A stretch of 64,000 bases of DNA, taken from NCBI GenBank assembly GCA_965235115.1, contig OZ249436.1, positions 28,212,001 to 28,276,000 of the forward strand, in the 5' to 3' direction. Of this stretch, positions 6,715 to 55,647 are shown piece after piece (the stretch's first letter is position 1; each line of letters opens with the position of its first letter). The position numbers and the translations under genes are program-made. The stretch comes from Laetmonice hystrix (taxonomy: Eukaryota). The notes under the pieces were generated by a model, which saw only the letters and a program-made list of their open reading frames with translations, did not search any database and was not told where the DNA came from.

Positions 6715-6953
6715 CATACGAGGACCCGAAAGGCTGGTGGACTAGCGGCAACTACATCGTACGTAACCGGCAGTGGATGTGGACGACGAAACACCACCTC
6801 AAACAGATCACGTATTCACGGTGGGCGCCGGGCGAGCCTGACGCACGTTCCACAATGCACTGCATGCTCATGTACAAAAACGCCCGCTACATGTGGCACG
6901 ACGCCACGTGCACCGACAAGCACAACTTCATCTGCGAGATTGAACTCATCTAA
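6715..6953 (+). CDS. Terminal exon of a perlucin-like C-type lectin domain protein
   Basis: Polypyrimidine tract and TTTCAG acceptor at 6714; WTSG, WMW, YSRWAPGEPD, HC, WHDATC, FICE then stop. These match the WxG / EPx / WxD / C...FICE layout of the C-type lectin fold. AATAAA hexamers near 7603, 7656 and 7728. Confidence 0.9.
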
Positions 6954-34987: not shown

Positions 34988-35125
34988 CACGTAATCCGGA
35001 GGCGTCTTGCCGGAGCCGCGGGCAGTTTCCGCCAGAGTGCGCCATTCAACCATCACCTGTCCAACAAGTCCCCGAGCCCTGACGACCAGCAGGTGGACCA
35101 TTCCGTCCTCCTCTCTCACCGGGAT
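34988..35125 (-). CDS. ADGRV1: ADGRV1-like exon 27 (last one recognised)
   Basis: IPVREEDGMVHLLVVRARGLVGQVMVEWRTLAETARGSGKTPPDYV; CCAG acceptor, GTGAGT donor; first half of a Calx-beta domain; not in the ORF track. Confidence 0.88.
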
Positions 35126-38100
35126 CTGGTGGATAACGAAAGGCAATCAGTTATAGTGAAGAGTCAACAACTTGTGTCACTGCAGTCACTCAAACAACAG
35201 AGGTAGATCCTCTAGACGCTCTTAATACAAGCTTGAATGTCTGGCCGAGACAATTTATCATTTATCATATTACTAGATTACTTTATTTTAGTGCATTAAA
35301 GATATTAAAGGGAAATGTGAGTGTTCGACGGAATTTGATTGACCACTAGAATTTTGAAAATATTTTTTATGGGGGATAGCCTTTGTCCATAGGAGTACAA
35401 AGAAACAAAAAAAATCATATGTCACCGAATTAGATTTTTTTATACAGGCCTCCGTAAAAAATGGGTCTTTACTATAGGTTTCAATGGGAAAAACATGATT
35501 TTTCAGACATTTTGACTAATAGTTAAAAAATGACCACCAATTTTTTCCTAAAACTCGGTGACAAGATAAAGTGGATCAGGACTGATAGTTTAAAACCAAC
35601 AAAATTGGGGGTCACCGAATTAAAAAAAAAGTTACAGCCTGCCAAACAGTCAGTGCCTTGGTAAAACACAGGTCTTAACCATAGCATTCAATGGAGTAGA
35701 CAGGTTCTGGAACACAGTTTGGTTCATGGTTTAAAAAATACTACTGATTTTCACATCAAACTAGTTGACTGCGTAAATAAGCCAAACATTTTTCTGTTAA
35801 AGCTCACTACGTGGCGCTTTGAATACTCACATTTCCCCAGTGATACCAACGCGACTCACTAGGTGGCGCTTTGAACACTCACATTTCCCTTTAATATAGC
35901 AGTTTACTTTCTGACCTCCAGAATGCCATCTTAATCATGAAACAGATGCCATGATGATGTGTGGTTTTCTGTAGATGCACGGGCAACAGACGTAACACAG
36001 TTTGGCCTACCTACTCCCTTTTGCTCTTTTTGGTTGTGGGGGGGGGCTGAAGGTTGTGGGGGATAATCCATGCCCACCGTAAGCGGGCCCTGGCGGGGGG
36101 TCTGGGGGCCCTCCCCCGGAAATTTATTTTCAGGAATGCCAGAGACGCGCTTTCTGAGCATCTCGGAGCTCGGGTGGTCGAGCAGAACAATATGGACTCT
36201 CCCCCTTTGGTGATCGAGCAGGACAATGGACCCTCCCCCTTTGGTGATCGAGCAGGACAATGAACCCTCTCCCTTTGGTGATCGAGCAGGACAATGAACC
36301 CTCTCCCTTTGGTGGTCGAGCAGGACAATGAACCCTCTCCCTTTGGTGGTCGAGCAGGACAATGGACCCTCCCCATTTTACATTATGAAACAGATGCCAT
36401 GATGCTGTATATGCCCTATAGAATAATCCACATGGGCCTTAACCATACAGTTTATAATGCAGTCTCTATGATAATATCCTATTCACTCTATCCACTGAAA
36501 GCATGCAGTGCAATAATCATACTGTACATGGAGGCCGAGTGACGACTATACATTATATGGTGATAATGAAATAACGAATACAGCTGTAAAAAGACTTTTG
36601 TGTGAATCTACGGGGAAGCATGCACGTGACAACAACAGTACTCAATACTACTTTCTACTACAATTGTAACTTAATTACTGTAATTAATGGCCACTTGTTC
36701 AGGCATCAAAACATTCAAACTACTGTAGTAAGTTCTAACATGCAGCGTTGAACAAATCATTTCATGTTTCATGACAACCCTGATTGACATGCATGTAATC
36801 AGCGAGAACTAATTGCCGGTCAAAAACACTTACTTTCATCTGATGGGTTTTTTTATGAAAAGCAATAAGTGAAAACAGTTTGTAAAACAATAATTGTCCT
36901 AAACTGATAAAATAATCTATGGTGGCCAGCAATACTGCATCGGGAGCCCGGTTTTTCAAAACGTAAGGTCCTGCCTAAACTCAACGCTTCTGATTGGCTG
37001 GTCAGGGCAGACCTGCCAATCAGAACCTTTAGCAAGAACTTAGCAGAACTTAGCATGGAAAGCCTTTTTCGGCCTACAGAAATCAAAGTTTGTAATTATT
37101 CACCAACACCTTCATCATCATCATCGCCATTGTCATCCAATCATCGCTTTTAATTTAAACGGTGGTCGACCCCCCGCCCCCTCCCCATTCGATACCCATT
37201 CCTCCATCTTCTTACCAACCGTAAATAGCCGCTGTAAACTTACTGATAAAACAATTAAGTGTCATGTATACAAGGACTGCCATGCTTTCAGCAATGGAAG
37301 GGCGATCGAAGAGAATCGTCAAGCCAATGTAATAAGAAGCTTATTGCAATATGCCAAAACTGCGGGGGGAAATAGAGTCAAAATAGACAGGCAGGGCAGG
37401 ATGGACAAATGGTTGGAAATTTTCGGAAATGCCAAGGGAAACCCGCCAAACTTTTTACACACCTGTGGGCGTTGGGTGGCAGGTTCTAGCAGGTCATTAC
37501 GTCCCGGGACGGGTCCGTCTGAGAACCTGAGCAGACCGTTCGGGTAATCATTGGCCTGGGTCCTGATCTGAGTACTGAAGGCGGTGGGGTCGATGCTGGC
37601 CCCGCTGGTGGCAGTACTACCCGCCTCCCCGTCTGACGACTGAGCCCCCGTCAATAACACAAGGAACACTTCCTCCACTTCCGGTTGGTCGTCATCAATC
37701 TCTTGGAATCGTAACACCTGGTCGGGAAAACAATGTGATGGTAGGTGTGTCATTTTGTCTGGTACAGAGACATTGTAGGGCCGGATAGTGTCAGTTTGTC
37801 TGGTACAGAGACATTGTAAGGCCGGATGGTAGGTGTGTCAGTTTGTCTAGTAGAGAGACATTGTAAGGCCGGATGGTAGGTGTGTCAGTTTGTCTAGTAG
37901 AGAGACATTGTAAGGCCGGATGGTAGGTGTGTCATTTTGTCTGGTACAGAGACATTGTAAGGCCGGATGGTAGGTGTGTCAGTTTGTCTAGTAGAGAGAC
38001 ATTGTAAGGCCGGATGGTAGGTGTGTCAGTTTGTCTGGTACAGAGACATTGTAAGGCCGGATGGTAGGTGTGTCAGTTTGTCTGGTACAGAGACATTGTA

Positions 38101-41100
38101 AGGCCGGATGGTAGGTGTGTCAGTTTGTCTAGTAGAGAGACATTGTAAGGCCGGATGGTAGGTGTGTCATTTTGTCTGGTACAGAGACATTGTAAGGCCG
38201 GATGGTAGGTGTGTCATTTTGTCTGGTACAGAGACATTGTAAGGCCGGATGGTAGGTGTGTCAGTTTGTCTGGTACAGAGACATTGTAAGGCTGGTGAAT
38301 ATGTACGCTAAAAACCTCCAGATATGGAGGTTTTCCTTGAACGGATCGTTAAACTATACTAACAAAAATCTACTTGATAGAAAGTAATCATAGCCACATT
38401 GGCATTTATCCAATGTCAACTGTTGGATATGGTTCATATGGTTCAATCTCATCAACCTGTAATGATTGCTGAGACTTTTTCATGTTCATGTTCAATGAAA
38501 TCGGTAGTCCTATTATCAAGCAGTGGTACTAACGGTAGAACTGAGCAACGTAAAGATAATGCTTCACAAAACCATCAATAAGATCAGATTTCCGTTTATA
38601 TAACCTAAGGGCCAACAACTTGAAATCCAGGTGAAATTTAGAGTTACAAAAAAATGCGTAGTACATATAGCCTCACCCCCTTGCACAGACTTACGTTTTC
38701 CCTTTGTCCAGGCTGGAAGATCACTTCACCGGTAGTATTTACAAAGTCCGACACGGGCCGCCCGGGCGGGTTCCGACCCCGGAGTTCCCAGGTGACGGTG
38801 ACGGTGTCAGCGTCGCCTCGAGTCCGGTCGACCGTGCACTCCCACACCACCCCCTCGTACTGCCACTGTGGGGGCATGTCCATCGTACACCGGCCTCGCA
38901 AACCGAACAAACCGTTCGCGTTGTCGTTCTTCATCACTGCAAACCACACACGGTGAAATAATTGGCAGTGTTGAAGTGGCGGTCTAGCAGGAGTAGGGGG
39001 TGGGGGTTACCCATACAACTAAGGAAGCCCTTAGGGTTGTTATGAAATGTACTAAACTTTGTAATTTGGGATGCAAGAAAAGGGACCAGAGCACGTTCTT
39101 TTACTTGAGAAATTTGGTTTGCTTCGGTTGATTCTCAAAAATGAATGCTTTGTTTTATTGCGAGCTTTGCGTCTTGGCGACTTTGCGATCTTACTTGGCA
39201 CGGATATTTTTCAGGTAAGACCCCCTTTGTCAATGTAATGCCTATGTTAACTTATTCCAACAGCCAAGATAACATCTGGATAACACAACTTCATTACCCA
39301 AAATTAATACCCTAGATAAATCCAAGCAGCAGCAGTTCTTCCCCACATTTCTCATTCTCAATCTGAACTGACAGTGTAAAAGGAAAATCAGCATTACATT
39401 GAGTTTGACATTCATTTTGTTTCCGATTTCCATACGGATTTTAAGTGTCAAAAAAACGACACTTACCAGTGAGGGCAGCCACAGCCTCAGTTCGCGAGAG
39501 TCGTGCTCCTCCTCTGGCTGCGATCAGTCTCACCGCGAACGCCTCACTGGGCTCCTCCTCGTTATCATCCACACTGTATATGGTGATGTTCTGGTGGGAA
39601 ACACCAGCCGGGAACGTTACATACCCAGAGATCGGGCGGAGATCAGCCTTGGCGGGAGTCGTAAACAACTCTTTCATTTCACTACATGAAACAAGAAATA
39701 ATCAAAGAAATCATTAAACGTTTTATTTCTTGGAATCTTAGAAATCGTTCCATTGGGGGGAGGGGTGAAAGTACCATGGCCTGTAAATATTTTTGTTGCT
39801 GCCATGTCTTTAGTCAACAACTTCAATGTTAAATTGTAAGTTCTTCTATTTCAAGGATTTTGTCAAGATTTTCTCTATCCAGAAACCATTAGATTGGGAG
39901 GGCATTACATCCATTAAGAACTGAAAGATTTATCCAGAGTATTGTTTAAAGTCTCTGAAGTTATTTTGAACGGGACCAATTCCCTGATAAAAACAAGCAG
40001 AAATGCCACGGGGATATACCTGACGTCTAGTTTACGGTTAAAGATGCGGACGTCCTGCATGTAGCCAGTAAAGAAGTCGGCCCCCGGCCACCGTGCCCCG
40101 GCCACTAACACGCCCAGTCCGTCAGTGGTCGACTCCGCTAACAGCCGTCTGAAACCAAGGTTTGATATTATTACGATGAAAGTGTCTAAACTTTGTCTCT
40201 GGTCCTTACCATGGAAACATTCACAGATTCTTCCCTTAGTCCTGTTTTCAAGGTATATAATAACCACAGAGATCACAGAACAAAAGCCATGTTAATGACA
40301 GGGGTAAGAAATCCGTAAATTTCCAGTCACTTCCTCAGAACTTCTAGTTTTGTCAATTCACGTTACAGAGAGTACATGGTTTCCATGGTTACAAGCCATA
40401 AGCAATCAGATGTTGTCAAATAAATACCAACCTTGAGCCAATCCTCTCTCCATCAACGTAGAAATCGGTAAAACCACTAGCAACAGTCACAAGGATGTGA
40501 TGCCATTCTCCATCCTCCAGATTCTTAATCACCTGGGTATTCACTGATTGAGTGTTCTGAAATCATCGTAATCCAATAACTGTCACTTGGTATGGGGCCC
40601 TCGAGGGATCAAAATTACGATCAAAATAGGCATCAAAATTATGATCAAAATAGGGATCAAAATTACGATCAAAATAGGCATCAAAATTACGATCAAAATA
40701 GGTATCAAAATTACGATCAAACTAGGCATCAAAATTACGATCAAAATAGGGATCAAAATAGATATCAAAATTACGATCAAAATAGGCATCAAAATTACGA
40801 TCAAAATAGGCATCAAAATTACGACCAAAATAGGTATCACAATAACAAAACCGTATCGACGTGTGCAAGTTAGACAGTGAATAACTACCTGGCTACAGGG
40901 TTTTTTGTCGGCCAGGGGATTCAGCGCCACCCCCACCCTCCCACCCCAATAGAAATATTGAGTTTTTATGAGGATCATATCCAATTTAAAATGCGGTTTG
41001 AAATTAAATGTATACACTGGCCAAGACCTAGTCTCCTACTTCTCATCAACCCGAAAACGGCAATTTGAAATGTCTCTTTCTTGGTTATCGCCTATCTTTC

Positions 41101-44100
41101 TTGGGGAGCCCCCCCCCCCCTCTATTTCACAAACTGGTGAAACACGCTTGCCTGGAATAATTCAAGTTGTGTAAAGTAAAAGGATTTTAGATTGTGTTTT
41201 AAATCTGACCTCGGTAGCTGCGACAGTGTAAAAGAACTCGAGGATCGCCCCGACCGATGACGTTGTGATCATTAAGGCGTAGTGGTGCTGTAGGGTGGTA
41301 GGGGAGGTCTTGGCTAGGATGAACCCACTGGTGTCGGTCAATGGTTGGATCCATGTACTGATGGTGAACCCGTCTACTATGGTATCCGCCGCCACCTGGT
41401 ATTCAGCGGGCACCTCTACATAGCACACTGAAACAGTCATATAAAACAGAATGGTAGCTTATTAAAAATGACAATCTACTACAGAAAATACACATAGAAT
41501 ACTTCACCATTTTAAAACCGAAAGTTTCTCAAATATATAATCTGAACAGTGTTTAAAAGCTTGACTACTGTGAGGAGAATACAATGTACAATCCATATTA
41601 TGTCTTGATGGGGTATTGTTATTTCTCGAATTCTGATACATTTTTGTATTACCATTAAATGACATACAGATTGTTTCTACTTAAGTGCAGATTGCGTCAC
41701 TAAAAGTTGCATTATACTTTAATAATGTAACCTTTATCCGGGCCTATAATTCCAGCAATGCGCTCTCACTCTCACCTGGGCAGCCGGAGAAGTAGAGCGC
41801 CATGGAACCGGTGCCAGGGCGCCGCTTGTCCTGGACCTCCGTTACATTGGGTGGGAACGTGCCGTAGAACAGTAGGTCGGTTGGAGCAGGCAAGACGTCC
41901 AGTCCACCCACTGGGTAGGAAAACACCTCCCACGCTACCTGAAAGGGAGAGTCTACACGATCAGCAATGGGTGAATGTATGAATGGGTGTTAAACATGGT
42001 CAGTATGCGTGATAGTTATAAGTAAAGTGTTAAATGCGATTAGCGGCATGTTCTACAAAGCATTCATGCAAAATATAATGAGGTCGGTGGGGGGGGGGAA
42101 TGTTCTGAATTTTTTAGTTTTCTTTTACCACAAACAAACCGAATTCCTTCGTCCATAACTAAATTTGTGACACTAAATTAATGGTAGACGTTTTCTAAAG
42201 AATTTTTCACCTGGACGATTAACAGCCAGCTTAAAATGTTGTTACAGTAAAACTAAATTTTCAAATCACAATGATCGCTGTATCTGCCGGTGCTGTTTGT
42301 CAAAGCGCTACACATGTATAACCGGGTTCTCCACCATTGGTCCGGATGTGATTGTAGGAGATTTTCAAATCACAATGGAGCGCTGTATCTGCCGGAGCAC
42401 GGACATTTGGGCCACGGACAATTGGGCCACGGACGTTTTGGGCCCAAATGTCTGTGGCTCAAATGTCTTACATTAGTATCTGCCAGTGCTTTTCGTCAAA
42501 GCACTACACATGTAGAACCAGGTTCTCCACCATTGGTCCGGATGTGATTGCAGGAGATTTTCAAATCACAATGGAGCGCTGTATCTGCCAGTGCTGTTTG
42601 TCAAAGCGCTACACATGTATAGCCGGGTTCTCCACCACTGGTCCGGATGTGCAGGGTGTGATTACAATCCCACCAAAGAAACCCCTAGATACCTACCATG
42701 ACCTCTCCGACCGTGCCCTGACGTCTGTAGATCGTCACCTCGGCCCTAGCTTTGTCCTCCTCTCCGGGGTTTGCGTCCTCTGCCACGGCTATATTCCTCG
42801 ATTCCAGGGGGAAGGTGAACACCCCAGACGGGTCGTCGTTCTGGATGACTTCTAACAGAACCTCAATGTTGGTCGGAGCCACAGAACCTACCACCTCACC
42901 CGGACCTTGTACGTGTAAGACGTATGTGTTAGTAACATAAAAAACTCTTACAATAATAGGTTCAAAACCTAAATGCTCACTAATAATGTCCTAACCATGA
43001 ATTCAATACAACCGTTTTTGCAATTTTAAAGCTCACCAACCATTTAATAAATAATAAAAGAGGTCTACGGAATGTTACCTATATTTTAGACAAGTTTTCT
43101 GAAATACTTAAAGTGGCGCTCTAAATTCCTCAAATACTTACCTTTGAACCTCAGTGGTACCATGTTAACATTTTTAGGATCGAGTGATAAGCGAAAGTAT
43201 TTTTAAAATAGAATAGAAAAATATGTCTCCACTGTCCTGGCTTCTACTCCGATTCCGCTGCCATAATTGGAAATAATCTATGATCTATAAATAGATTACC
43301 GCTAGCTCCCAGCTCCCGCTGGCATCAGAAAAATTGTTGACGGGTCGAACAGTAACTCGGGGCCCTATCATAACTCCATTTTAATTTTTTTTTAAATAAT
43401 AAGCGAAAGTATTTAATACTTTCGCTTATCGCTCGAATCTGAAATTTTAACATGGTGTCACGGGGTTCAAAGCTAAGTACTTAGGAATTTGGGGTTCCAT
43501 TTTAATTGTACCAGTCTCACTTCATCATCATCTTCATCATTGGACAGAAAAATGAAAAGGACTTGTTCAAATCATGAAGATGACCAACAATTGCAATTGC
43601 AGACCGGACGTAAACCCACCAAACTACCACCACAGTTCTCTATCGGAAATCTTTGTAAACCGGGATATTTACCACTAATATTGGTGAGCCTGATGATGAC
43701 ATTACCACTAATATTGGTCAGCCTGATGATGACATTACCACTATTATTGGTGAGCCTGATGATGACATTACCACTATTATTGGTGAGCCTGATGATGACA
43801 TTACCACTAATATTGGTGAGCCTGATGATGACATTACCATTAATATTGGTGAGCCTGATGATGACATTACCACTATTATTGGTGAGCCTGATGATGACAT
43901 TACCACTATTATTGGTGAGCCTGATGATGACATTACCACTAATATTGGTGAGCCTGATGATGACATTACCACTATTATTGGTGAGCCTGATGATGACATT
44001 AGCACTAATATTGGTGAGCCTGATGATGACATTACCACTATTATTGGTGAGCCTGATGATGACATTACCACTAATATTGGTGAGCCTGATGATGACATTA

Positions 44101-47100
44101 CCACTAATATGGGTGAGCCTGATGATGAAGAATTCCGAGTATTCCGGTAGGTTGTCCATGGCCGGCGTGATCAGCAGTGCTGCCTCCTGTTGTCGGTCAT
44201 CAAAAGTAACGTTACCGGTGCTCGGCTGGAAGTCGGTATTGTTGACGGGCATGCCGGTGGTAGCGTTCAGGGCAATCCAGTGGACTTGGACCTCACCAAA
44301 CACTCCCTTCTCACGGCGAACTCTGCAAAATAACGCCGTCTACGGTCAAAACAACATAACACCGTCTACGGTCAGAACAAAATAACGCTGTTTACGGTCA
44401 GAACAACATAACGCTGTCCACGGTCAGAACAAAATAACGCCCTCTACGGTCAGAACAAAATAACGCCATCTACGGTCAGAACAACATAACGCCGTCTACG
44501 GTCAGAACAAAATAACGCCGTCTACGGTCAGAACAAAATAACGCCGTCTACGGTCAGAACGAAAAGACTACATTCATACTATAAGCTCTAGCTCTGTTGC
44601 GCAAAATAGATAATTGTAAAAAAAAGAACTCAAAAGAACCAAAACGTTTCCAACCTCTTTATAACATCAAAGTATTCCTGGACTGAGAACTTGGGGGGGG
44701 GGGTCAGGGACAAAGCGGTGGGGGAGCCTAGAACAGTAGGGGTGGGTAGGCATTTTTTAAATATTAGCCCGGGCAAAAACAGCTAAACGTTGCTAACCTG
44801 AATTCCGCAGGCTCGCCCTCTGAGGTACTGAGACGGTAAGGTTCGGTGAAGTGAAAGATGCCGCTGGCGTCATCACTGGCTGAGATGATGATGGTAGCTC
44901 GGTCACTGCCGTACACAGATACGTCACCTGCAAATGGACCATAGTAAATGGTAGGACAGGTGTATTTCGCAATCAATTAAAATCAAGCAAAAACAAAATC
45001 AAGACCTTTCACGTTTTCCACCCTCAAAAATACAAGTTTCGTCCCTTTTTATCCTTTTTCTATAGGACAATATCAGTGTCATGTTACTTTCGTATCTTTT
45101 TTTTTTTTTTTTTTTAAATTCGTTTATTTAAGCTGGCCAGACGTCAGCGCAATCGCTGGTTTTCTTCCGTGCATCCGTAAAGGATTACTATACGGCTTTG
45201 TGAAATGGACAATACCAGTACGTATAGGTTATGACATTGACTACTTGTCAGATGTTTGGTTCTGTTAACACATGTTTGGGTAGACAGAAGTGATATTTCC
45301 CCCCTCATGGTGAAGGTAGTACAAAATGTATAACGGAAGTGGAACACGCTCAACGCCGCCATTCTGGTATGTCAATAATCACAGCAACACAGACATCAAA
45401 TAATTCTCCGTGCGTTAGAGTGGGACACAAATACGGCCACCTACGATAATTCTCACTCCCTTGAAAGATTTCCAGGCGTTTAAAGGACGATTTGGTGAGT
45501 TTCCTTTCATAAATACCAATCAAACTCACAAAGTAAAGGAGAGTGGATGATGTCTGCGAGGAACATTGCAGACATATTTTCTGTGAAAGGTTAGCTATTA
45601 TTTGAAACTCGTGAGACCCCGCCTTTAATCAATATTCTTGTCTCATTTATGTCTCTTGCAATGCATGTCATAACAGTGAGACACTTTCTCTGATGCCAAC
45701 TCAAACAATTTAATTCGTGTACATGTAAAACAGAAAAACAACTCAAATTTCAACCATGTCAAGTGTCCAAGGTGAACCGATATCTGTGTGCTATTTGACT
45801 GTGATTATTATCAGTTAGTAATCTGCATCCAACAATGAGGAAAGGAAAGCGGGAAATTGACCATTACCGGCTCCACTACCAGTGACAGCTTTCCAAAGTA
45901 ATACATACAAAAGTTATCACAAAGTCGTCCTTAAATACACCGTATATCTTACCACTTTGGATAATGATAGATTTCCGTTATATATTTCAATTGTACCTCA
46001 AAGGTTCATGACATTAATCATACAAAAGTTAGATTTTTTTAATTACTTGCTATAAAACAAAGGGAGGTGTATTTCAATTGCAGCTGAGTTTGCAATCTAG
46101 TTGTAGTTCCATGGCCCGATTTATTTCAAAATTTCTTGTTCGTCTTTAAGGAATGGCTATTCTGCTTCGACCAACAAATCAGTAGCGTTAAAACCATTCA
46201 CGATTATCTCTTAAAATTTTCAATGGCTCCAAAATGCAGACATCGGCTGTTAGGTTAGATAAGGCCTTAGATTACATAAATCAATAAATGTATATCGACA
46301 GAAATGGAGAAATCTAATGAAATTCAACATTCCAGTTGCCTGTTGTCGCTATAAAGCGATCGGCTTATAGCTGGTTGTTGACAAAATCGTTGACCTGGAA
46401 TTGACTTGAACAGCCAATGAAATTCATCGAGCGATGTTATTGATTTATGTCGTCCTTATCTAATGTAATAGCTCATGTCTGTATTTTGGAGTCAGTGAAC
46501 TAAGAGATAATGGTGAATGGCTTTAAACTTAAGCAAGAGCTTTAGAATACGGGGTCAGTTACATGATACTGAATCATTTAACTGTGTACCAACAACTACC
46601 AAGGCTTGTTGTGGTATTCTTCCCACTGCCACTTTTCGCCGTGTCGATAATCATGAAACGACTTATATTTACATATTATGGTGTTACAGAGTTGGTGCAT
46701 TCAATGTTGCCATCTCATTTCATCTCATTTCTTGGTTACATTTGCTCCCTACTTCGTCTTTAGAACTTGTTGTTTTATACGTATGTTTGAATTGTATTTG
46801 GATTGCCTGTATCAAACACTTGGTACTACTAAACTCAGACTTTCCTTTGTGCCGAAAACCGATAGTTTATAATTCAGTCTATAAATTAGTCTGAAGCGTA
46901 CCTTTGGGATTGAAGAGTCTGACGTAGAAAATCTCATCAGGTTCAGGCAATGTGTCGTCGACAACCTCAAGTGTTAGACTTGATTCGTTTTGTTGGCGGC
47001 CGAACGTGATGTTGCCAGCCATCGGTATGTAGTCAGCGTCTCGAGCCGTGGCCAGGCCATCCTCTGTCCTGTACATAACTGTCACCTCCGTGTCGAGAGG

Positions 47101-50100
47101 GCCCTGGCGTACAACAGTCAGTGTCGGGGACGAGGGTTCCCGGATTCTCATCACTGGCTCTACGGCACGCAAGTAACAAAACACAATACTGGAACGGTCA
47201 TAGCCGAAATATTATGATAACACCATTATAAATGTTAACTGGGTTAAAGTAGTAGCAATATCTGCCCTCTGAAAATGGGTTATCTTTTTGAGACACCCTG
47301 TATATATGAACACAATGATTTTTTTTCTGAGTTCTAATGCATCCGCATTGCATTGGCAAGAAGGAACGATTGAGAGAAAGAAGGAAGGGACAAGAGGACA
47401 CGGAAGAAGGGGCAGACAGAGGGAGAGGGTAGGAAGGAACCAAGAAACTTGAGTAAGAAAAGAAAGATGAATCAGGAGGGAGGAAAGGAAGGAGGAAGAA
47501 AGGAAGACGACGTGGCGAGGATGACAATCGCACCGAATCGTGACAGTAAAATAAAGACACCCTTTACGTGGTTTACAAGTTTACCTTTGAAGTAGATTGG
47601 GTTGTCATTGGCAGCTATGGTAATAAAAGCTGTACTTGGCGTCCCAATACTAGCACCATTCGTTGCATTGGTTAGAATCACCTCAAAAGTTTCATCACCC
47701 TCTGGGATCTAGAAACATAAGTGAAAGAATGGTGGGCATATTATCAAAAAAATGTTTACATTGTTAGAACACTGTTAGGAAGTATGACTTCAAACTCCTT
47801 CTCAACACCGTAGAGATACAGGACTTGCAAATCCAGGTAGGTCAGGACACACGATTCTCAATACTTTCTATTCTGTAGAAAATTGCGGCATTATATAAAC
47901 GCTTCTTGATCAAGCTCAATTATTCTCATCACCAAAAAATTGACCACTGAAATAACACTGAGCTTTCACTAAATATCCCTACATATATTTATTCCATTGC
48001 CTCTAGTCAGGAGGATGTATTTGTACCCCCCTCCCCCCCCCCCCCCCCCAAAAAAAAAAAAAAAAAAAAAAAAACCAGCGTCACCTGATCATCCCAGGAC
48101 TGCAGCATTATGACGGCTGTAGCCTCTCTCTCGGAAAACGTCAGGACTCCCGACTGCGGGCTGAGGTCGGGGGCCGTCTCATTGACAGCTACACTCCAAC
48201 TGACAGTCACCGATCGGAACAAACCCTGACTCCTCATCACAGTCAGACTAACAGTCCGAATGACGTCCCCCTTACTCTCCTCTGAAACCAGCCCCGTCAA
48301 CAAACAACGTTATGGCCATTTTAAATAAAAGGTGATTATTACAAGTATAGACATCTCATGATGACATCACCACAGATTTGTTGGGAAAGAGTTAAAAAAA
48401 ATCTATCACTGAACCTCAACCTTAACAACGGCCCCGCCCCCAAACCTCCCCAAAACTTGAGAATGTTTACATGTTGAAAAATAATATATTCCTTTTGACT
48501 GAACCCCTACATTTCTCATAATAAACTATGTTTTTTACTTTCACTTGTCATTACTCTTGATTCAAGCTACGCATCAGATACCCCAAATATACTGAGAAAC
48601 CTGTAGACATACGTATAGTTTGATTATGTAAGGAGGCGTCAAAGTGGATAACTCCATATGGAAAGTCGTTTTCTTTGATAGTGATGTAAATGAATCTCCT
48701 ATCGCCGATCTGGCCTGGATTTGGACCATACCCTTCCAGAATCAACGTGAAGTGTGCTTCCAGCTGTACGTGACAAATTAAACATCAGGTTATCCTTATA
48801 GGTGTAAGTCTACAGACATGCTAAAAATTCAAAGAACCACAAAAAGGTAGACCGACGGTCATTTGAATAATATCAAATTATAGAAATATATTAACTTTTT
48901 CTATGTATGATTCTTTATTTGTTAAGACCTGTGTATACAGCATATTTATATAATGCTAACGGTAATAGACCTATACCTGAATTTGATAAAAATCCATTTT
49001 TATTCCCATTGCTAATATTATTTACCTCTGCTTCGTCATCATCTATCGCCGCAATGGTAGCATTCATCTCCGTCTCGCCAGAGTAAAAGTGCATAATGTT
49101 CTTGGACCCATAAAACTGGTCCATTCTATTGCCTTCTATGTAAAACAACACCGTTCGGTTAGCAAGGTTTCCACCAAGGCGCACCACCGAAATCTCAATT
49201 CCCTCACCTTCCTATAATAAATAATGGGTAGAAACTGAATCATTATAATCTAATACGTTATACGTTAATGGGAACTGACACACATACAGATCAAACTCAT
49301 CTTGACAGGATGGCTGGTCAAATAACACCCCCCCCCCCTCCTTCCAAGACATTTTGGAAATGCAATCGCAACTGGCACTATTGCTGTCAAACGCTCACAT
49401 ATTAGACAGATGAATGTACGTATACTACGATATGTTAACAGAAATAGCACCTCTACAACGTAGTTGTCGGTCATTGTCGTCGCAAACTCAAAGATGCCTC
49501 CAGGACTGTCGTTCTCTGAGACAGTGATGTCCACTTGGCGTGCTGCCTGGTCAATACGTTGTGAGATCCCTGACTGTTCTGATCTTAGAGAGATTGTAAA
49601 CATTTCATCTGTCTCTGGTATGTCGTCAGGTAGGATGTCAAAGGTGATTTCTGCTGAGGCATCGCCTGAAAACACATTGCCGGTCGGCAAGTTATTGGTA
49701 TGTTGGGACGTTATGCAGAGAAAGGTTCGACTTTCATGTCTGGATGATAACATGGTTTACACACAAATTTGAGAAGTAAATTTCATGACTTTTTAATGAC
49801 GAAATTAACATTTTCCATGACTACTTTCTTTGAGCGTGAGGCCCAACCAAGAGAATGGTCGACAAAGCTGAAAACTACTTTAACCAAAAGTTTATACTTC
49901 TTTGAAGATGAAAGATATATCTTGCACGGAACAGATGGTTTGTGCAAAATTCCATGACTCCTAAAAAAACATAAATCCATGACTTGCCAGGGTGGTTTCA
50001 AATTCTCAATGATTTTCAATGACCATTTGAAAACGTTTTTGGCTGGGGGACCGTAAAAGCGATGACGACAGGACGAAGGCATGGAAATTGTCAGTTTGTA

Positions 50101-53100
50101 TTACTAAGGGTTTATGGAGGTGCATTACCTGGCATCATTCGGACCGTTCCGGAGGTGGGTGACAAATCGCCGTCAATGGGGCCAGAGGAGGGGTCGCCGG
50201 CTTGGACCTCCCAGTAGATGTCGGCTACCCCCTTCGTCCCACTTCTCTTCAGTCTTAGGGTGACCTTCAAAAAACATAACAACATTTAAGAGCGAGGGAC
50301 TGGCTGGGTGTCAAGTAATACTTGTTTCTACAACCGCCATAGTCTCAGTGACCGTAGGATGAGTTCACTTTTGAATTTCATACCATGTGTCATCCGAGCT
50401 TGGCTAAGAAAAAAGCAGTGGTTTTACAGGAATTTCTTTAAACATACATGAATATAATAATAGGAATTCCTCTGCACTATTTAGAGTTCTAAAAAAAAGG
50501 CGAGAAAAAAGGTAAAATATCATAAAATATTTCTATAGCAATACACAACTTGTAATCCAGAGGTAAAAACTATCAGATGGATTGACATTAGGAACGCTAC
50601 TGCTTGCTTAGTACTCGGAAACCCCGCTAGATGGCAGGACCAGTCTCTGGGCCGGTTTTCCGGCCTGTGATCGAAGCTCACTAATAACACAGGTTTGGCC
50701 GGTACACCGGCCTACGAACTCGAAGTTACATTATACATTAGGACTACATTAATCAGATAATGAGGCAGAGGATGATGATTACTTCTGTGGTCTTCTGGTT
50801 GCCCTCTGGTTCCGAAACTCTTCTCATTGTCGTGTTCTCAAAGCCAATAACGCCATTGGCTGCGTCAGCACTGATGTCTACTGCCATTATATCTGTCTGG
50901 CCGATTCTTGGACTGTTGAATCCTACGACCCCTTTATACAGCGGGTAATGAATTGATATTAGTGATTCTTTATGATACAAGGCAACGATATATCATAACA
51001 AAACTAGAGTTTTCATAGATACAGGTATCAACCCAAAACTAGTTCAATTAATGTGTAGATCCACACCATTTACAGAGTTGACGTACAGATAGGCCTACAG
51101 GGTGAAGAAATTAAACAATCGTCCCATTTCCAGACAAAACTGCTGAAGTGCACTTAATACTAAAGTCTAGTCTAGTTACCAGAGACTAGTGTAACGTTGA
51201 TGAGTTGGATCTGGAAGCGTGCTCCATACTCCAAAAATGTATTTTCCTTGACGGCCACATAGAGTAGGGTCGTTCTAATCCGTGGTTCTAACGTTATCTC
51301 GGCAGGCATGTCAGAAGTAAAAATATCTGAAGAAGTTCCATAATGGTCTTTAGGTTATGTTCACTATCAATTAGTTGAAAAAGAGGTCAGTGGTAAAAGC
51401 TATAGGCCAACTTAAGACTGAAATATGTATTACTTCCTTTTGAAATCCAGGGGGTATCGAGGAATTTGAAAGGGGGGATCCAAAGGACAAATCTGGCAGG
51501 AAAAGGTGTCAAATACGGCATATTCGGCAAGTTGTATGAGAAAAAAGAAATTTGACCCCAAATTAGGGGCTGACCCCCCTGGATCCGATAGAGGAAACCA
51601 AAATGTTCCTGTACCAATACAAATGTCATTCCAGCTACATTGTAACAAATAGGGTTGAAGACAAAGTTACAGCATTGCTAGCTGGGACTCTATAACTATG
51701 AAGTATTACCTGACTTTTCCAGGTCGCCATATATGTACTTTACGATGTAGGCTACACGGACAGTTTCAAGACTGTCAGCTGTACGTTCCAGAGCTATTCT
51801 CAGTACGGGTGGTGTCATACGCTGTGGAAACCCATCAATGTTAAAACAATGTATGAGAGCTAAGTCGTATTTTTAAGTCTTATTATCAAGTCTTCTCAAG
51901 AGAACTAGATCTATTAAGATTTCCTTAACAATGCCCTGGAGAAATTTTAAGTTAAAGTTGGTAATTATAATTACATGTATACAGAAAAAGGTCTACAAGA
52001 GTGTCTATAATTATCTGATAAACTTCTACGTAAAGGAAGTAAAATGGCTTTAACAGCACGATACTCTTACATAATTACAACAATGTTAAACAGAAGTAAT
52101 TCCTTACAAGAAGGTCCACATCATCTATGTTTACAACGCCATAGATGTCATCGCTGTCCTTAAGCATAACTTTTGCTGACGCGGGGTTTCCGATGACGGC
52201 GCCATCTGTAGCGGCTGTGAGATGAAAACGGAAAGTTTTCGCTGGCCCCCTCTCTTGGTCCTGAGGCGCCTCCAACTCCACAACCGCCTGAGTTTGTCCT
52301 TCCTCAAACACTACCTCACCCGTTACTTCTTTGACACCAGTGACTGCACCGCCATTCATACTGACCAATTGCCATCGAACTTTAACCTCGCCAAACGTGC
52401 CCTTGTCCCGGTATATCACTATGTCCGTGCTCTGGTCGGGATTGTCCTCGTCAATGTAGAAGTCCTGGTCCTGTAAGATGACGAACACTCCCTGAGGACT
52501 ATCGTTCTCCTTGATGATGACCGCCACGGTGGAAGGGTCTGTTAGTACTACGTCTCCGACGGCATCATAGAGAACGACGTAGAACTTTTCCTCTTTCTCT
52601 GGTTGGTCATCGGGGAGAATAGTCACATCTATGGTCAGGTTGTATTGCCCTTGATCAAAAACCAGGGTGCCGTTTTCGCCGGAGAAGTCTTTGGAATTTT
52701 CGGCGGTGAAAGGGACAAAGCCATAGGACACACTTGCTTGTCCTAAAGGTGGTACGCCCCAATACCCACGATCAACTTGTATTTCAAGCTCATAATTATC
52801 CTCAATGGGGTTATAATATGTTGCCTGGAAATTTAAAAAAATACTTATCATTTCACACAGGGTATATTCCATTTCTCCATGTATAATTCAACCAAACTAC
52901 ACACCAACTGTATACCATGCGTAGAATCTCCGTTCTCAGATGTAAGCGAGTAAATCTGCTCACCTGATGAAAGCGTATGGGGTCATCGTTTGCCGGTATT
53001 TGCAGCATAGCCTGTCCGTTTTTAATCATGGCCTCCTTGGCTGTTGGATCCCTACTGATCCCTCCCGCGGCCATTTCCAACGTGACGTACAGAGATTCGT

Positions 53101-55647
53101 CTCCCTCGGGGATCTGGAACCGGTGAGAAACGGTTTTGATAAATTTCTCTTCAATATACGTACGACCGTCAATCACGTGAGGGAATTCAATGGAATCGTT
53201 TTGGCCGACAAATTTCGCAAGGAACCCAGAAAGACAGCGTTCTATAATATGACACCAAGTATCATATCAATACATGATGGCATTTCTAGTTGGTCTAGTG
53301 CCTGAACAGCTAGATTATGCCACTTCAACTAACTTTTGAATTTACTTTAAACAAACAGAGACAGAGAGATAGAGACAGCGACAGAGAGGTAGAGCTAGAG
53401 ACAGAGAGACAGAGAGAGGTGGAAGCACAGGAGAAAGAAGGAATGACAGAAACCTTGAAGGTAAGCCCAGGGCAGAGAGATATTTCAGCACAGGTCAACT
53501 TACATCATCAGGCAGGACTTCAATCTGTAGCTCAGCCGACGTCTCCATATCAGCAAATACTACTTGGCGAGTTGTAATGTTAACATCAGTGCCCGGAGTT
53601 GCACTGTCAACTGGTGGTTCTTCAAAAACCTAAAGAAATACTTCAATATAGTAAAGGGTTCTTTCAGAAAATCTTATTAACTCATTTAAATTGTATCTTT
53701 AAACTATCATTAGGTGTCGTTTCCCCCGCTTTACACCACACAGTTGTTCTAGCAACAGTCTATCTTTTGAAAACTTAAACAATGAAACTGAAACTTACAA
53801 CGTTGAGAATGACTTCACCAAACATTCCTCCTTCTCTTACTATGGTGAAGTTAGCAAGCCTTAAATGATACGGCGCATCGGGAGGGGGTTCTCTGACAAC
53901 CACAGGGTTGGCCTTCAACAGACACAGTTATCATTACTTGCTATATATGTGTATAGTTTCTACAAACATGTTGCAAGGATTTATTTTCTTTTGGTACTGG
54001 GCTTATCTTTCTACTACACTTACCATTCCATTTATAAAGGAGAATTCACCAAATGCGTCATCGCTGGCTGCTATGGTGATGGTTCCTGTGTACTCTGGGG
54101 CACGCCTACCATCGCCATCACCGACGATGATCACCTCAAATGTAAATACCTCTGCATTCTCTGCATCATCGTCATCGTGGACGGTGAAATATACATTTGT
54201 GTTTCTTCGCCCATTGCCAGGTCCTATGGGCGCTAAGGCATTGGTGATTTCAAAATCGTTCCCACCGTGCGCATTTGCATTGGTTATCTTAGGGATAAAA
54301 TAGAAGTCATGAGCACATTTCTGTAACTGGCAGTTAGGAGGAAATCCGTTAAATGGAGAACCACTCTTGGATTTTGAATGAACCCTCAAGAGGAGAATAT
54401 GTCTGTAGGCCTACCCTTGTAGTCCAAATTATGATAGAGTAAATTATAGTAAATTGTATAGTAAATTTAGCATTAATCATGATTCGACTATAAAACACGA
54501 TGACGGAACACAACCAACTGTTTATGTTGAAAATCAGTCATCCATTGCAATAATTTCAAAACCAAGGTCTTTATTTTACAGACGACATCTTGGCCTTACA
54601 TGTCATATCCTATTCATTATATAATATTACTATTAGGTACTTTTCATAAAACCTGCAATTAACGTTGGTTTCCTTCTTATATACGTCCCTGTCTAATGTT
54701 TGACTACCAGAGACACAATCAAACAAGTGATCAGAGTGTGGTCTCTCCCAAACACTGATCCCTCAGTTGACCTTTCCCTGATAACTCCATCCCCTTTGAT
54801 CCATGTCATTTCAACACCTTCCCTAATTGTTCTCGGATCCAAGCAACCCGAGCTGTCAGTTGCACGCGAGCCTATTTACCATCGCATTAGACGAAGCCAG
54901 TTTTAACCTAGCTGACCTTTGAACCGGACAGCAGGAGCTGACAGCCACGACCAACCAACGAGCTGCCACTCCCTGGTTTATAGACTCTTTCTAGGCGACC
55001 GGATGGGGACGTAACCGCTTCAAAAGCAGTCCATTCAGACATTCACTGCACTGCTTAATCCAGTACAATGGTTCATACTTTTTTACTCGCTTTTTAAAAA
55101 GGATCTGACCCACTAAGGCGATTTTCCTTGCGACGTCCATGGGATTTTGACATCACCCTTTTATTTTACTGTAATTTTGAGATTAAAGGATGGAACCCAT
55201 TTCCTGAAACGTAGAAGGCCGGTCAGAAAAGATTTCAAAGTGAAATTCCACCATTAAATCAAAAATCGCATGGCCGTCGTCCGGGTAATCGCCTTAGTGG
55301 ATCAGGTCCTTGGATCAGGCCCTTTATGTATGATTGCAGGAAGAACTGACACGTGACCAGGATATTGTTTGCAATACCTAACATACATGTACAACAAACA
55401 GAACGGAGCACCTGACAAACACCAGACTGATTAATCATTTCTTTAATCCAACATCACCTACCCTAACAGCAACCAGGATTGTGGATGTAGCGGCGCCAGT
55501 GATGATGAGTTCAATACTGAACGTTTCACCCTCCAAAACTTCATAGTTGGTCTTGGCCAGACGGACATCGGCAGTGCCCCGACACTGACCGGTCATACTG
55601 ATCATCACAGCCAGAACCAGCGTTAAGACACCGTTACAGGGCCTCAT
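34988..55647 (-). CDS. ADGRV1: ADGRV1/GPR98/VLGR1-like adhesion GPCR, N-terminal ~1,760 aa in 27 exons (signal peptide, Calx-beta repeats, LamG/pentraxin-like domain); 3' part not found in window
   Basis: Hand-spliced GT-AG exons with matching phases: 55462-55647, 54024-54287, 53799-53912, 53504-53629, 52964-53113, 52108-52824, 51710-51821, 51180-51326, 50783-50931, 50129-50264, 49451-49665, 49026-49211, 48613-48763, 48085-48281, 47585-47708, 46902-47159, 44798-44927, 44102-44322, 42697-42905, 41776-41938, 41210-41427, 40432-40556, 40020-40148, 39467-39681, 38695-38936, 37463-37717, 34988-35125. Repeated Calx-beta signatures (GxxxFxxG, DDxxPExxExFxxxL, IxxNDxPxGxF). LamG segment FTISTWIQP...DGEWHHILVTV...FYVDG...FTGYMQDVRIF sits among the Calx-beta repeats, as in ADGRV1. 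Confidence 0.9.
35309..35890. mobile_element. TTAA-flanked MITE (Kolobok-like)
   Basis: TTAA|AGGGAAATGTGAGTGTTC ... GAACACTCACATTTCCCT|TTAA; right end is locally duplicated (35803-35838). Confidence 0.85.
36174..36375. repeat. ~34-bp minisatellite x 6
   Basis: Unit GGTG(A/G)TCGAGCAGGACAATG(A/G)ACCCTC(T/C)CCCTTT. Confidence 0.95.
37463..37717 (-). CDS. ADGRV1: ADGRV1-like exon 26
   Basis: IDDDQPEVEEVFLVLLTGAQSSDGEAGSTATSGASIDP...ANDYPNGLLRFS. Confidence 0.9.
37738..38292. repeat. 47-bp minisatellite x ~12
   Basis: Unit GGATGGTAGGTGTGTCAGTTTGTCTGGTACAGAGACATTGTAAGGCC. Confidence 0.97.
38695..38936 (-). CDS. ADGRV1: ADGRV1-like exon 25
   Basis: MKNDNANGLFGL...CTVDRTRG...DFVNTTGEVIFQPGQREN. 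Confidence 0.9.
39467..39681 (-). CDS. ADGRV1: ADGRV1-like exon 24
   Basis: EMKELFTTPAKADLRPISGYVTFPAG...DDNEEEPSEAFAVRLIAARGGARLS. Confidence 0.9.
40020..40148 (-). CDS. ADGRV1: ADGRV1-like exon 23 (LamG/pentraxin-like)
   Basis: DGLGVLVAGARWPGADFFTGYMQDVRIFNRKL; phase 2 to 2. Confidence 0.88.
40432..40556 (-). CDS. ADGRV1: ADGRV1-like exon 22 (LamG/pentraxin-like)
   Basis: NTQSVNTQVIKNLEDGEWHHILVTVASGFTDFYVDGERIGS; not in the ORF track. Confidence 0.88.
40606..40838. repeat. 24-bp (2 x 12 bp) minisatellite
   Basis: Alternating ATCAAAATTACG and ATCAAAATAGG(C/G/T) units. Confidence 0.95.
41210..41427 (-). CDS. ADGRV1: ADGRV1-like exon 21 (LamG/pentraxin-like)
   Basis: FTISTWIQPLTDTSGFILAK...HYAL. 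Confidence 0.88.
41776..41938 (-). CDS. ADGRV1: ADGRV1-like exon 20
   Basis: VAWEVFSYPVGGLDVLPAPTDLLFYGTFP...ALYFSGCP. Confidence 0.85.
42257..42652. repeat. Local ~100-bp direct duplications
   Basis: ATTTTCAAATCACAATG..CGCTGTATCTGCC occurs three times; GGTTCTCCACCA.TGGTCCGGATGTG occurs three times. Confidence 0.85.
42697..42905 (-). CDS. ADGRV1: ADGRV1-like exon 19
   Basis: GPGEVVGSVAP...QNDDPSGVFTF...VAED...IYRRQGTVGEVM; phase 1 to 0. Confidence 0.88.
43112..43501. mobile_element. TTAA-flanked MITE (Kolobok-like) with ~90-bp imperfect TIRs
   Basis: TTAA|AGTGG...AAATTCCT...GATAAGCGAAAGTAT matches the reverse complement of ATACTTTCGCTTATC...AGGAATTT...CCATT|TTAA. Confidence 0.8.
43667..44128. 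repeat. 33-bp minisatellite x 14 spanning the exon 18 / intron boundary
   Basis: Unit GATGACATTACCACTA(A/T)TATTGGTGAGCCTGAT; 44102-43673 = 429 = 13 x 33. Confidence 0.97.
44102..44322 (-). CDS. ADGRV1: ADGRV1-like exon 18 (3' end ambiguous because 13 in-frame donors extend down to 43673)
   Basis: VRREKGVFGEVQVHW...DFQPSTGNVTFDD...MDNLPEYSEFFIIRLTHIS; first donor G|GTAATG at 44101. Confidence 0.85.
44328..44560. repeat. ~25-26-bp minisatellite x ~9 abutting the exon 18 acceptor
   Basis: Unit AAATAACGCCGTCTACGGTCAGAAC(A). Confidence 0.95.
44798..44927 (-). CDS. ADGRV1: ADGRV1-like exon 17
   Basis: GDVSVYGSDRATIIISASDDASGIFHFTEPYRLSTSEGEPAEF; phase 1 to 2. Confidence 0.88.
46192..46522. mobile_element. 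TTAA-flanked MITE (Kolobok-like)
   Basis: TTAA|AACCATTCACGATTATCTCTTA ... TAAGAGATAATGGTGAATGGCT|TTAA with long imperfect TIRs; a relative lies at ~13400-13700. Confidence 0.85.
46902..47159 (-). CDS. ADGRV1: ADGRV1-like exon 16
   Basis: EPVMRIREP...YRTEDGLATARDADYIPMAGNITF...VVDDTLPEPDEIFYVRLFNPK. Confidence 0.92.
47585..47708 (-). CDS. ADGRV1: ADGRV1-like exon 15
   Basis: IPEGDETFEVILTNATNGASIGTPSTAFITIAANDNPIYFK. Confidence 0.9.
48085..48281 (-). CDS. ADGRV1: ADGRV1-like exon 14
   Basis: ESKGDVIRTVSLTVMRSQGLFRSVTVSW...DLSPQSGVLTFSE...WDDQ. Confidence 0.88.
48613..48763 (-). CDS. ADGRV1: ADGRV1-like exon 13
   Basis: LEAHFTLILEGYGPNPGQIGDRRFIYITIKENDFPYGVIHF. Confidence 0.88.
49026..49211 (-). 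CDS. ADGRV1: ADGRV1-like exon 12
   Basis: EGEGIEISVVRLGGNL...FYSGETEMNATIAAIDDDEAE. Confidence 0.88.
49451..49665 (-). CDS. ADGRV1: ADGRV1-like exon 11
   Basis: GDASAEITFDILPDDIPETDEMFTISL...ENDSPGGIFEF. Confidence 0.9.
50129..50264 (-). CDS. ADGRV1: ADGRV1-like exon 10
   Basis: VTLRLKRSGTKGVADIYWEVQAGDPSSGPIDGDLSPTSGTVRMMP; phase 0 to 1. Confidence 0.85.
50783..50931 (-). CDS. ADGRV1: ADGRV1-like exon 9
   Basis: GVVGFNSPRIG...AANGVIGFENTTMRRVSEPEGNQKTTE; phase 1 to 0. Confidence 0.85.
51180..51326 (-). CDS. ADGRV1: ADGRV1-like exon 8
   Basis: DIFTSDMPAEITLEPRIRTTLLYVAVKENTFLEYGARFQIQLINVTLVS; phase 1 to 1. Confidence 0.8.
51710..51821 (-). CDS. ADGRV1: ADGRV1-like exon 7
   Basis: RMTPPVLRIALERTADSLETVRVAYIVKYIYGDLEKS; phase 0 to 1. 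Confidence 0.8.
52108..52824 (-). CDS. ADGRV1: ADGRV1-like exon 6 (two Calx-beta domains)
   Basis: 239 codons including GTLVFDQGQYNLTIDVTILPDDQPEKEEKFYVVL and IKENDSPQGVF. Confidence 0.92.
52964..53113 (-). CDS. ADGRV1: ADGRV1-like exon 5
   Basis: IPEGDESLYVTL...IPANDDPIRFHQ; CAG/GTGAG boundaries. Confidence 0.85.
53504..53629 (-). CDS. ADGRV1: ADGRV1-like exon 4
   Basis: VFEEPPVDSATPGTDVNITTRQVVFADMETSAELQIEVLPDD; TTTAG/GTAAGT boundaries. Confidence 0.85.
53799..53912 (-). CDS. ADGRV1: ADGRV1-like exon 3
   Basis: ANPVVVREPPPDAPYHLRLANFTIVREGGMFGEVILNV; AG/GTAAGT boundaries; not in the ORF track. Confidence 0.85.
54024..54287 (-). CDS. ADGRV1: ADGRV1-like exon 2 (Calx-beta)
   Basis: ITNANAHGGNDF...VHDDDDAENAEVFTFEV...IAASDDAFGEFSFINGM; donor GTAAGT. 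Confidence 0.85.
55100..55310. mobile_element. Small MITE with ~50-bp imperfect TIRs
   Basis: AGGATCTGACCCACTAAGGCGATT ... AATCGCCTTAGTGGATCAGGTCCT. Confidence 0.7.
55462..55647 (-). CDS. ADGRV1: ADGRV1-like exon 1 (ATG and signal peptide)
   Basis: MRPCNGVLTLVLAVMISMTGQCRG-TADVRL...VAVR; acceptor TTTACAG just 5' of the ATG; donor AGG|GTAGGT. Confidence 0.75.

What the first reader, a model, noticed from the sequence alone, without database searches (positions are those of the whole stretch)
43667..44128. Minisatellite that multiplied an ADGRV1 exon end and its splice donor into 13 in-frame alternative 5' splice sites
Seen: a 33-bp unit (11 codons) containing the last codons of exon 18 plus G|GTAAT is repeated 14 times. 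The frame stays open throughout (IIRLTN[I/N]SGNV)n. Thirteen units keep a GT at the same phase 1 (12 GTAATG and one terminal GTAAAT); one unit is mutated to G|CT. The next exon (42905) needs phase 1, so every donor gives an in-frame protein. Most added units carry an N-x-S sequon (NIS or NNS). Inference: donor choice or repeat copy number could insert 0-13 glycosylatable 11-aa units near the end of a Calx-beta domain, tuning the length of an extracellular link protein. The alternative is that only one donor is used and the rest is neutral.
Basis: partly seen in the sequence, partly recalled or inferred. Interest (0 to 1): 0.75.

Follow-up and report, generated by a model that had tools for sequence, protein, structure and literature searches.

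The report
Splice-donor minisatellite in invertebrate ADGRV1
A 33-base piece covering the end of one exon and its splice signal in an invertebrate's ADGRV1 receptor gene is repeated 14 times in a row, a layout already known from lancelet and human genes, and the cell likely uses mainly the first signal, so the extra copies are probably tolerated intron filler and not a protein-length dial.

Summary
The array is real: 33 bp x 13.9 at 43669-44128, spanning the exon 18 donor of an ADGRV1 orthologue. 13 of 14 units keep a GT and all 14 ends are in frame with exon 19. DNA contigs join the last unit to a preceding unit and to the intron. The tuning idea is unsupported, though not refuted: no RNA run could be tested. 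The open frame needs no selection (0 of 99 single substitutions give a stop). The sequon is inherited from the exon end (9 of 16 homologues). Added units would sit inside the Calx-beta fold, not between domains. This is a known class: lancelet 'mirages' and the human F7, CBS, 6-16, LMNB2 and PDGF repeats, where only the first or first few donors are used. The scan noted the same layout before in this genome (LIG1, LONP1) and others (unchecked notes). Two points keep the rival open: the last donor is likely ancestral and scores higher (7.8 vs 6.6 bits), and unit 1 lacks the sequon. Verdict: new member of a known kind, low interest.

The parts
43669..44128 (-). 33-bp minisatellite, 13.9 units, each 27 exonic bases plus 6 bases starting at the donor
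44102..44322 (-). ADGRV1 exon 18 (221 nt) ending at the first donor; encodes most of a Calx-beta domain
   Evidence: (Pfam PF03160 E=0.0039, below curated cut-off)
44096..44128 (-). Unit 1: exon end with private His codon (homologues mostly Asn) and first donor GTG|GTAATG, the likely working donor
   Evidence: use is inferred
43700..44095 (-). Units 2-13: 11 look-alike donors plus one unit mutated to G|CT (44003); likely intronic
   Evidence: intronic status inferred
43667..43699 (-). Unit 14: joined to unique intron sequence, donor GTG|GTAAAT, likely the ancestral donor and the highest-scoring of the array
42906..43666 (-). Rest of intron 18, holding a high-copy inverted-repeat (MITE-like) element at about 43132-43482
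42697..42905 (-). Exon 19 (209 nt), phase-1 acceptor; encodes the loop and last strand of the same Calx-beta domain and the start of the next segment
44326..44565 (-). 26-bp minisatellite ending 4 bases before the acceptor of the same exon, with AG in most units, mostly out of frame (internal control)
37737..38292 (-). 47-bp minisatellite ending 20 bases before the exon 26 acceptor, one acceptor-like YAG per unit, period not divisible by 3 (internal control)
34988..55647 (-). Host gene: first 27 coding exons (1759 codons) of an ADGRV1/VLGR1 orthologue

Best explanation
This is a 33-bp minisatellite made of the last 27 bases of ADGRV1 exon 18 plus its splice donor, likely born by a local tandem duplication and expanded by ordinary repeat turnover, and splicing likely uses mainly the first donor (44102), so that the other 13 units would be removed with the intron. 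Shown: the array, its position, the frame, the intact host exons. Inferred: origin from a single exon end whose donor survives as unit 14; expansion by slippage or unequal exchange; choice of the most upstream donor, as in human F7 and lancelet mirages. Any leak to unit 2 or 3 would add 11 or 22 residues in frame to a loop inside the Calx-beta domain and would likely be tolerated; the 3n period is then luck that lowers the cost of the array, not its purpose.
For: (1) First-donor splicing gives the best match to fish ADGRV1 (score 1008 against 918-998 for the other 13 ends). None of 10 collinear homologues that cover the junction has a repeat there; they differ by 0-4 residues, as do the 11 further proteins checked (0-4 gap positions). 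(2) The exon end N-x-[ST]-G is an old boundary: 8 of 8 single-exon calls from other genomes lose similarity right after it. (3) 0 of 99 single substitutions of either common unit give a stop; the 5 variant sites are 4 non-synonymous and 1 synonymous, against 77% expected without selection. (4) Same gene: a 26-bp and a 47-bp array stack acceptor-like AGs in all three phases before exons 18 and 26, so this gene carries decoy-bearing arrays regardless of frame. (5) With 6 arrays in the 20.7-kb gene span, the rough chance that one spans a donor is 0.22, and 0.07 that it is also in frame. (6) F7 minigenes use only the most upstream donor, even with 8-12 repeats, with in-frame downstream sites, or with stronger downstream sites up to consensus value 91 (PMC1557585). 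Lancelet mirages do not disturb splicing (PMC3087553, PMC3902484). (7) Exon 18 is 221 nt at the first donor and 650 nt at the last; 26 of 27 exons in the model are 264 nt or shorter.
Against: No junction read was seen, so donor use is not shown. The last donor scores higher than the first (7.8 vs 6.6 bits on a matrix from the gene's 26 other donors; 6 vs 5 matches to the 9-base consensus). Unit 1 has His where 10 of 16 homologues and all 13 other units have Asn. In human CBS and 6-16 two further sites are used besides the authentic one, and older duplicated-donor experiments gave opposite results (PMC1557585). The scanning rule was shown in mammalian cells only. One exon of this gene is 717 nt, so long exons occur. 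The alignment score only shows that relatives lack the insert, which any recent insert would also show.
Confidence: 0.75

Rival explanations
1. The last, ancestral donor (43673) is still the main donor, so all 13 extra units are exonic and the protein constitutively carries a 143-residue glycosylated insert in a Calx-beta loop; the array is then a coding repeat.
For: Unit 14 adjoins unique intron sequence and has the best donor score of the array. Frame open. Calx-beta F-G loops of NCX1 carry cassette exons and are largely unstructured (PMC4746289, passages). AlphaFold2 folds the repeat as a confident beta structure (pLDDT 96-98).
Against: F7 data: moderately stronger downstream donors do not compete. 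The score gap is small; a much stronger 9-mer at 43142 (11.5 bits) lies further down the same intron, inside the MITE-like element, so matrix score alone is a poor guide. The model has no PDB match at E<=0.001 and AlphaFold2 is known to make confident but unrealistic beta-solenoids of perfect repeats (PMC11795689, abstract). Ile-to-Asn in 6 of 14 units shows no sign of protein constraint.
Confidence: 0.1
2. One reading: many donors are used, giving a ladder of isoforms with 0-13 added units whose mix or copy number is regulated or selected to tune the ectodomain.
For: 13 donors in frame, 12 sequons; 11 donors are identical 9-mers within the range of the gene's real donors (above 9 of 26); limited use of extra donors is known for CBS and 6-16.
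Against: No published case in the papers read uses more than two extra donors. Insert lies inside the domain, so it would not set length. Frame and sequons need no selection. Absent from all homologues examined, including the nearest (P0029, 70% identity).
Confidence: 0.08
3. The array harms splicing (skipping of the 221-nt exon would shift the frame), or the gene copy is truncated or silent, so donor choice is moot.
For: Both borders of exon 18 are flanked by decoy-bearing arrays. No ADGRV1 exon was found in the 35 kb after exon 27.
Against: 27 exons join into 1759 codons with no stop and stay collinear with homologues at 31-43% identity. Models P0022 and P0023 (Patella) end at the same exon and no AATAAA/ATTAAA lies within 2 kb after exon 27, which fits a long intron.
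Confidence: 0.04
4. The array is an assembly artefact or much shorter in the animal.
For: Copy number could not be measured; no laid piece spans the array, since only its last two units were laid.
Against: Units differ at 5 sites in an irregular order. Contigs in 2 of 3 runs (X1, X2; one sample) run from intron through unit 14 into unit 13 over their whole length, and summed depth on the last two units is 1337-2516 against 27-53 on single-copy DNA (not a copy number).
Confidence: 0.03

Closest known systems
Human F7 intron 7 37-bp VNTR (Borensztajn et al. 2006, PMC1557585; read: abstract, introduction, part 3 of results, discussion)
   Same: First unit spans the exon-intron border; near-identical donors follow in tandem; some downstream sites would be in frame.
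   Different: F7 units hold 4 exonic and 33 intronic bases and only some are in frame; here 27 of 33 bases are exonic and every donor is in frame. F7 donor use was measured (first only); here it is not.
Amphioxus 'mirage' minisatellites in Adh3, troponin C, globins BflGb6/BflGb9 and PGBD5 (PMC3087553 and PMC3902484; passages read; the Adh3 and troponin C originals not seen)
   Same: Invertebrate genome; tandem copies of an exon-intron boundary; unit size within the 10-72 bp range given for Adh3; many but not all units keep the splice signal.
   Different: Different gene and, by homologue identities, not a Branchiostoma sequence (38% to B. lanceolatum ADGRV1). Normal splicing and length instability were shown there, not here.
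Human 6-16 (IFI6), CBS intron 13, LMNB2 and PDGF boundary repeats (as summarised in the introduction of PMC1557585; originals not seen)
   Same: Donor reiterated 10-25 times; 6-16 and CBS use two extra sites, the best model for a small leak here.
   Different: Unit lengths differ; whether extra use here exists is unknown.
NCX1 CBD2 cassette exons in the Calx-beta F-G loop (PMC4746289, passages)
   Same: Alternative sequence inserted in the loop before the last strand of a Calx-beta domain; the orthologous ADGRV1 domain folds like NCX1 CBD1/CBD2 and integrin beta4 Calx-beta (E 2e-9 to 1e-8).
   Different: NCX1 uses conserved cassette exons with measured effects; here a recent lineage-specific repeat with no evidence of inclusion. 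Strand letters for ADGRV1 are my assignment.

Membership tests
Boundary-spanning minisatellite ('mirage', F7-type) | Head-to-tail array of minisatellite-size units | tested here: met
   33 bp x 13.9, 96% matches
Boundary-spanning minisatellite ('mirage', F7-type) | First unit spans a real exon-intron boundary | tested here: met
   Gene model and homologue alignments
Boundary-spanning minisatellite ('mirage', F7-type) | Splice signal reiterated in most units | tested here: met
   13 of 14 units keep GT
Boundary-spanning minisatellite ('mirage', F7-type) | Normal splicing kept; upstream donor(s) used | not testable with these tools
   No RNA run was listed; the three runs laid behave as DNA
Boundary-spanning minisatellite ('mirage', F7-type) | Length variation between alleles or cells | not testable with these tools
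   One sample, short contigs, no whole genome held
ADGRV1/VLGR1 | Tandem Calx-beta domains collinear with ADGRV1 | tested here: met
   Pfam PF03160 on 2 of 3 exons scanned, one above cut-off; exons 17-26 align over 600+ residues at 37-39% to named ADGRV1 of shark, crinoid, lancelet and fishes
ADGRV1/VLGR1 | LamG/PTX domain after this Calx-beta block | tested here: inconclusive
   Exons 20-23 align in order to the fish protein, which carries PF13385; not scanned directly
ADGRV1/VLGR1 | EAR repeats, GAIN/GPS and 7TM region | tested here: inconclusive
   Not in the window: no match in 1-34900 to the downstream part of 5 homologues; may lie beyond a long intron
Coding VNTR that sets ectodomain length (MUC1-like; recalled comparison) | Repeat lies in an extended segment between domains | tested here: not met
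   Junction maps to the end of strand 93-105, before the loop and last strand 120-125 of the modelled homologous domain
Coding VNTR that sets ectodomain length (MUC1-like; recalled comparison) | Repeat present in mature mRNA | not testable with these tools
   No RNA data; no protein with the repeat among the 8000 candidates scored, weak evidence
Coding VNTR that sets ectodomain length (MUC1-like; recalled comparison) | Signs of protein-level constraint on the units | tested here: inconclusive
   4 of 5 variant sites non-synonymous, as expected without selection; too few sites for power

The most novel reading that the evidence does not exclude
Because every donor is in frame and the strongest, ancestral donor lies at the far end, this animal may splice exon 18 at many points along the array and make a family of ADGRV1 ectodomains with up to 13 extra glycosylated beta-strand copies looped out of one Calx-beta domain: a mirage minisatellite caught in the act of becoming coding sequence, with repeat number setting the isoform mix.
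Probability: 0.15. Interest if true: 0.55.

Novelty: new member of a known kind. Interest (0 to 1): 0.17.

Why it matters
As most likely read, it is one more case of a repeat type known from lancelets and a few human genes, and matters little by itself. Its small value is as a natural test of donor choice outside mammals: all sites are in frame, so mRNA decay cannot hide the use of downstream donors; unit 1 is marked by one base; and the strongest donor is last. One RNA data set would show whether position beats strength in an invertebrate. If downstream donors are in real use, it would show a boundary repeat being taken into a receptor's coding sequence.

Tried and rejected
No RNA holder listed among public runs; this says nothing on expression. 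The three runs laid cover introns without intron-skipping joints and were read as DNA, so they give no junction data. No whole genome is held, so no genome-wide count of in-frame versus out-of-frame boundary arrays was possible. Metagenome scan for related loci: 176 pattern matches, none confirmed. Searches for a transcript-derived protein spanning exons 18-19 or holding the repeat found none (0 of 36 candidates; 1 of 8000, a distant single exon); weak evidence. RNA folding of the array is not unusual (z = -0.74), so a masking structure was not pursued. The AlphaFold2 model of exon 18 plus 13 units was set aside as a likely repeat artefact. The stop count used the wrong frame and was redone. 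In one search the end of exon 27 was set 15 bases too far, giving one terminal stop in all 14 models; corrected. Literature searches for an in-frame, multi-donor ladder in an invertebrate found nothing relevant (open-access library only, so absence is weak; passages of PMC10078293 and PMC13196383 gave no such case). A human VNTR with a repeated donor that I recalled (UPF3A) was not found and is not used. No paper supplements were read. Selection for the open frame was rejected as unnecessary.
Full report
Observation. The minus strand at 44128-43667 holds 14 units of 33 bases (TRF 43669-44128, 13.9 copies, 96% matches, no indels). Each unit is 27 bases of exon end and 6 bases starting at the donor. 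Twelve end G|GTAATG, unit 14 ends G|GTAAAT and unit 4 is mutated to G|CT. The unit occurs nowhere else in the window at up to 7 mismatches. I built a 27-exon model from ATG 55647 by hand; it gives 1759 codons without a stop. The array starts in exon 18 (44322-44102). All 14 possible ends join exon 19 (42905) in phase 1 with no new stop.

Is it real DNA? Three public runs of one sample hold 58-69% of the words of 42690-44330. Laid on 41150-43740, their contigs run through introns and show no intron-skipping joint, so I read them as DNA. In X1 and X2 a contig runs over its whole length from the intron through unit 14 into unit 13, and summed depth on the last two units is 1337-2516 against 27-53 on single-copy sequence (the tool warns that this is no copy number). 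The run may be the source of the assembly, so it is not independent. An artefact is unlikely; the number 14 is not verified.

Host gene. Exons 17-26 align over more than 600 residues at 31-43% identity to 10 homologues, among them named ADGRV1 proteins of shark, crinoid, lancelet and two fishes. None has a repeat at this junction. No ADGRV1 exon is found in the 35 kb after exon 27 (the same test finds 48 hits upstream), so the membrane part of the receptor is not shown here. A long intron is the likely reason, since two other gene models end at the same exon and no poly(A) hexamer follows within 2 kb.

Is the open frame a sign of function? No. Once a coding exon end is copied with a period divisible by 3, the frame is open: 0 of 99 single substitutions in either common unit give a stop. 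Three of 14 arrays in the window have such a period. The five variant sites are four non-synonymous and one synonymous, against 77% non-synonymous expected without selection; the sample is too small to prove neutrality. The sequon is inherited: 9 of 16 homologues in alignment A1 have N-x-S/T at this place. The same exon has a 26-bp array 4 bases before its acceptor, and exon 26 a 47-bp array 20 bases before its acceptor, both stacking AGs in all three phases. A rough placement estimate gives 0.22 for one of the gene's 6 arrays spanning a donor and 0.07 for also being in frame.

Where would the units go? A model of the homologous domain (P0022 stretch, 17 rows, pLDDT 88) matches NCX1 and integrin beta4 Calx-beta structures. 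The exon junction maps to the end of the long second-last strand; exon 19 supplies the loop and the last strand. Added units would therefore copy that strand into a loop within the sandwich. They would not lengthen the chain of domains (inference). The equivalent loop of NCX1 CBD2 takes cassette exons (PMC4746289, passages), so a small insert may be tolerated. AlphaFold2 folds the 13 units as a confident beta structure, but with no PDB match at E<=0.001, and this is a documented bias for perfect repeats (PMC11795689, abstract).

Which donor is used? Not measured: no RNA run was listed. Precedent favours the first. In human F7 only the most upstream of several identical donors is used; this holds with 8-12 repeats, for in-frame downstream sites and for stronger downstream sites short of a perfect consensus (PMC1557585). 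The same paper lists LMNB2 and PDGF (first donor only) and 6-16 and CBS (two extra sites). Lancelet 'mirages' do not disturb splicing (PMC3087553, PMC3902484; passages). Against this: unit 14 adjoins the unique intron and is likely the ancestral donor; it scores 7.8 bits against 6.6 for the others on a matrix built from the gene's 26 other donors, and the first donor outscores only 9 of those 26. Unit 1 has His where 10 of 16 homologues have Asn, though 6 of 16 have other residues, one of them His. The scanning rule comes from mammalian cells.

Earlier notes of this scan (unchecked, not counted as evidence) describe the same layout many times in this genome, for example LIG1 (53 bp x 22) and LONP1, and in other genomes, including in-frame cases (NADK, STAM) where RNA was said to show first-donor use. 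They gave me the term 'mirage', which I then checked in two papers.

Verdict. A real, young, donor-spanning minisatellite of a known class. Most likely (0.75) the first donor dominates and the rest is intron, with at most a small in-frame leak. Main use of the last donor (0.10) or a broad ladder (0.08) is not excluded and one RNA data set would decide it. Novelty: new member of a known kind. Interest 0.17.

Noticed in passing
window 1-34987: No ADGRV1 exon follows exon 27 within 35 kb although homologues continue for over 4000 residues; gene models P0022 and P0023 (Patella caerulea) end at the same exon, while Lottia, crinoid, lancelet and shark proteins continue. Suggests a very long intron at this position in several invertebrates, or a split gene.
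   Followed up: partly
window 6606-6950, + strand: Exon with a C-type lectin domain (Pfam PF00059, E=2e-6; 1 of 115 frames with a hit above cut-off), opposite to ADGRV1; possibly nested in its long intron.
   Followed up: no
protein P0111 (unnamed, 42% identity to exon 18): An 8-9 residue motif covering the same exon end recurs 17 residues later, which looks like an independent 51-bp duplication of the same donor in another animal. DNA not seen.
   Followed up: partly
window 44326-44565: 26-bp minisatellite ending 4 bases before the exon 18 acceptor, with AG in most units; exon 18 is thus flanked by arrays on both sides.
   Followed up: partly
window 37737-38292: 47-bp x 12 minisatellite before the exon 26 acceptor, one pyrimidine-rich YAG per unit, every third in frame.
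   Followed up: partly
window 43132-43482: Inverted-repeat element in intron 18 with very high read depth (up to 33,000 against about 50), MITE-like; it holds a near-consensus donor 9-mer at 43142.
   Followed up: partly
proteins P0002, P0017, P0160: Fish ADGRV1 short forms of about 1840 residues end one exon after the point where this gene's exons stop.
   Followed up: no
window 41150-43560: Contigs of the three runs differ from the window and from each other at many sites, including a 30-base deletion at 41577 in X2, which points to high heterozygosity.
   Followed up: no
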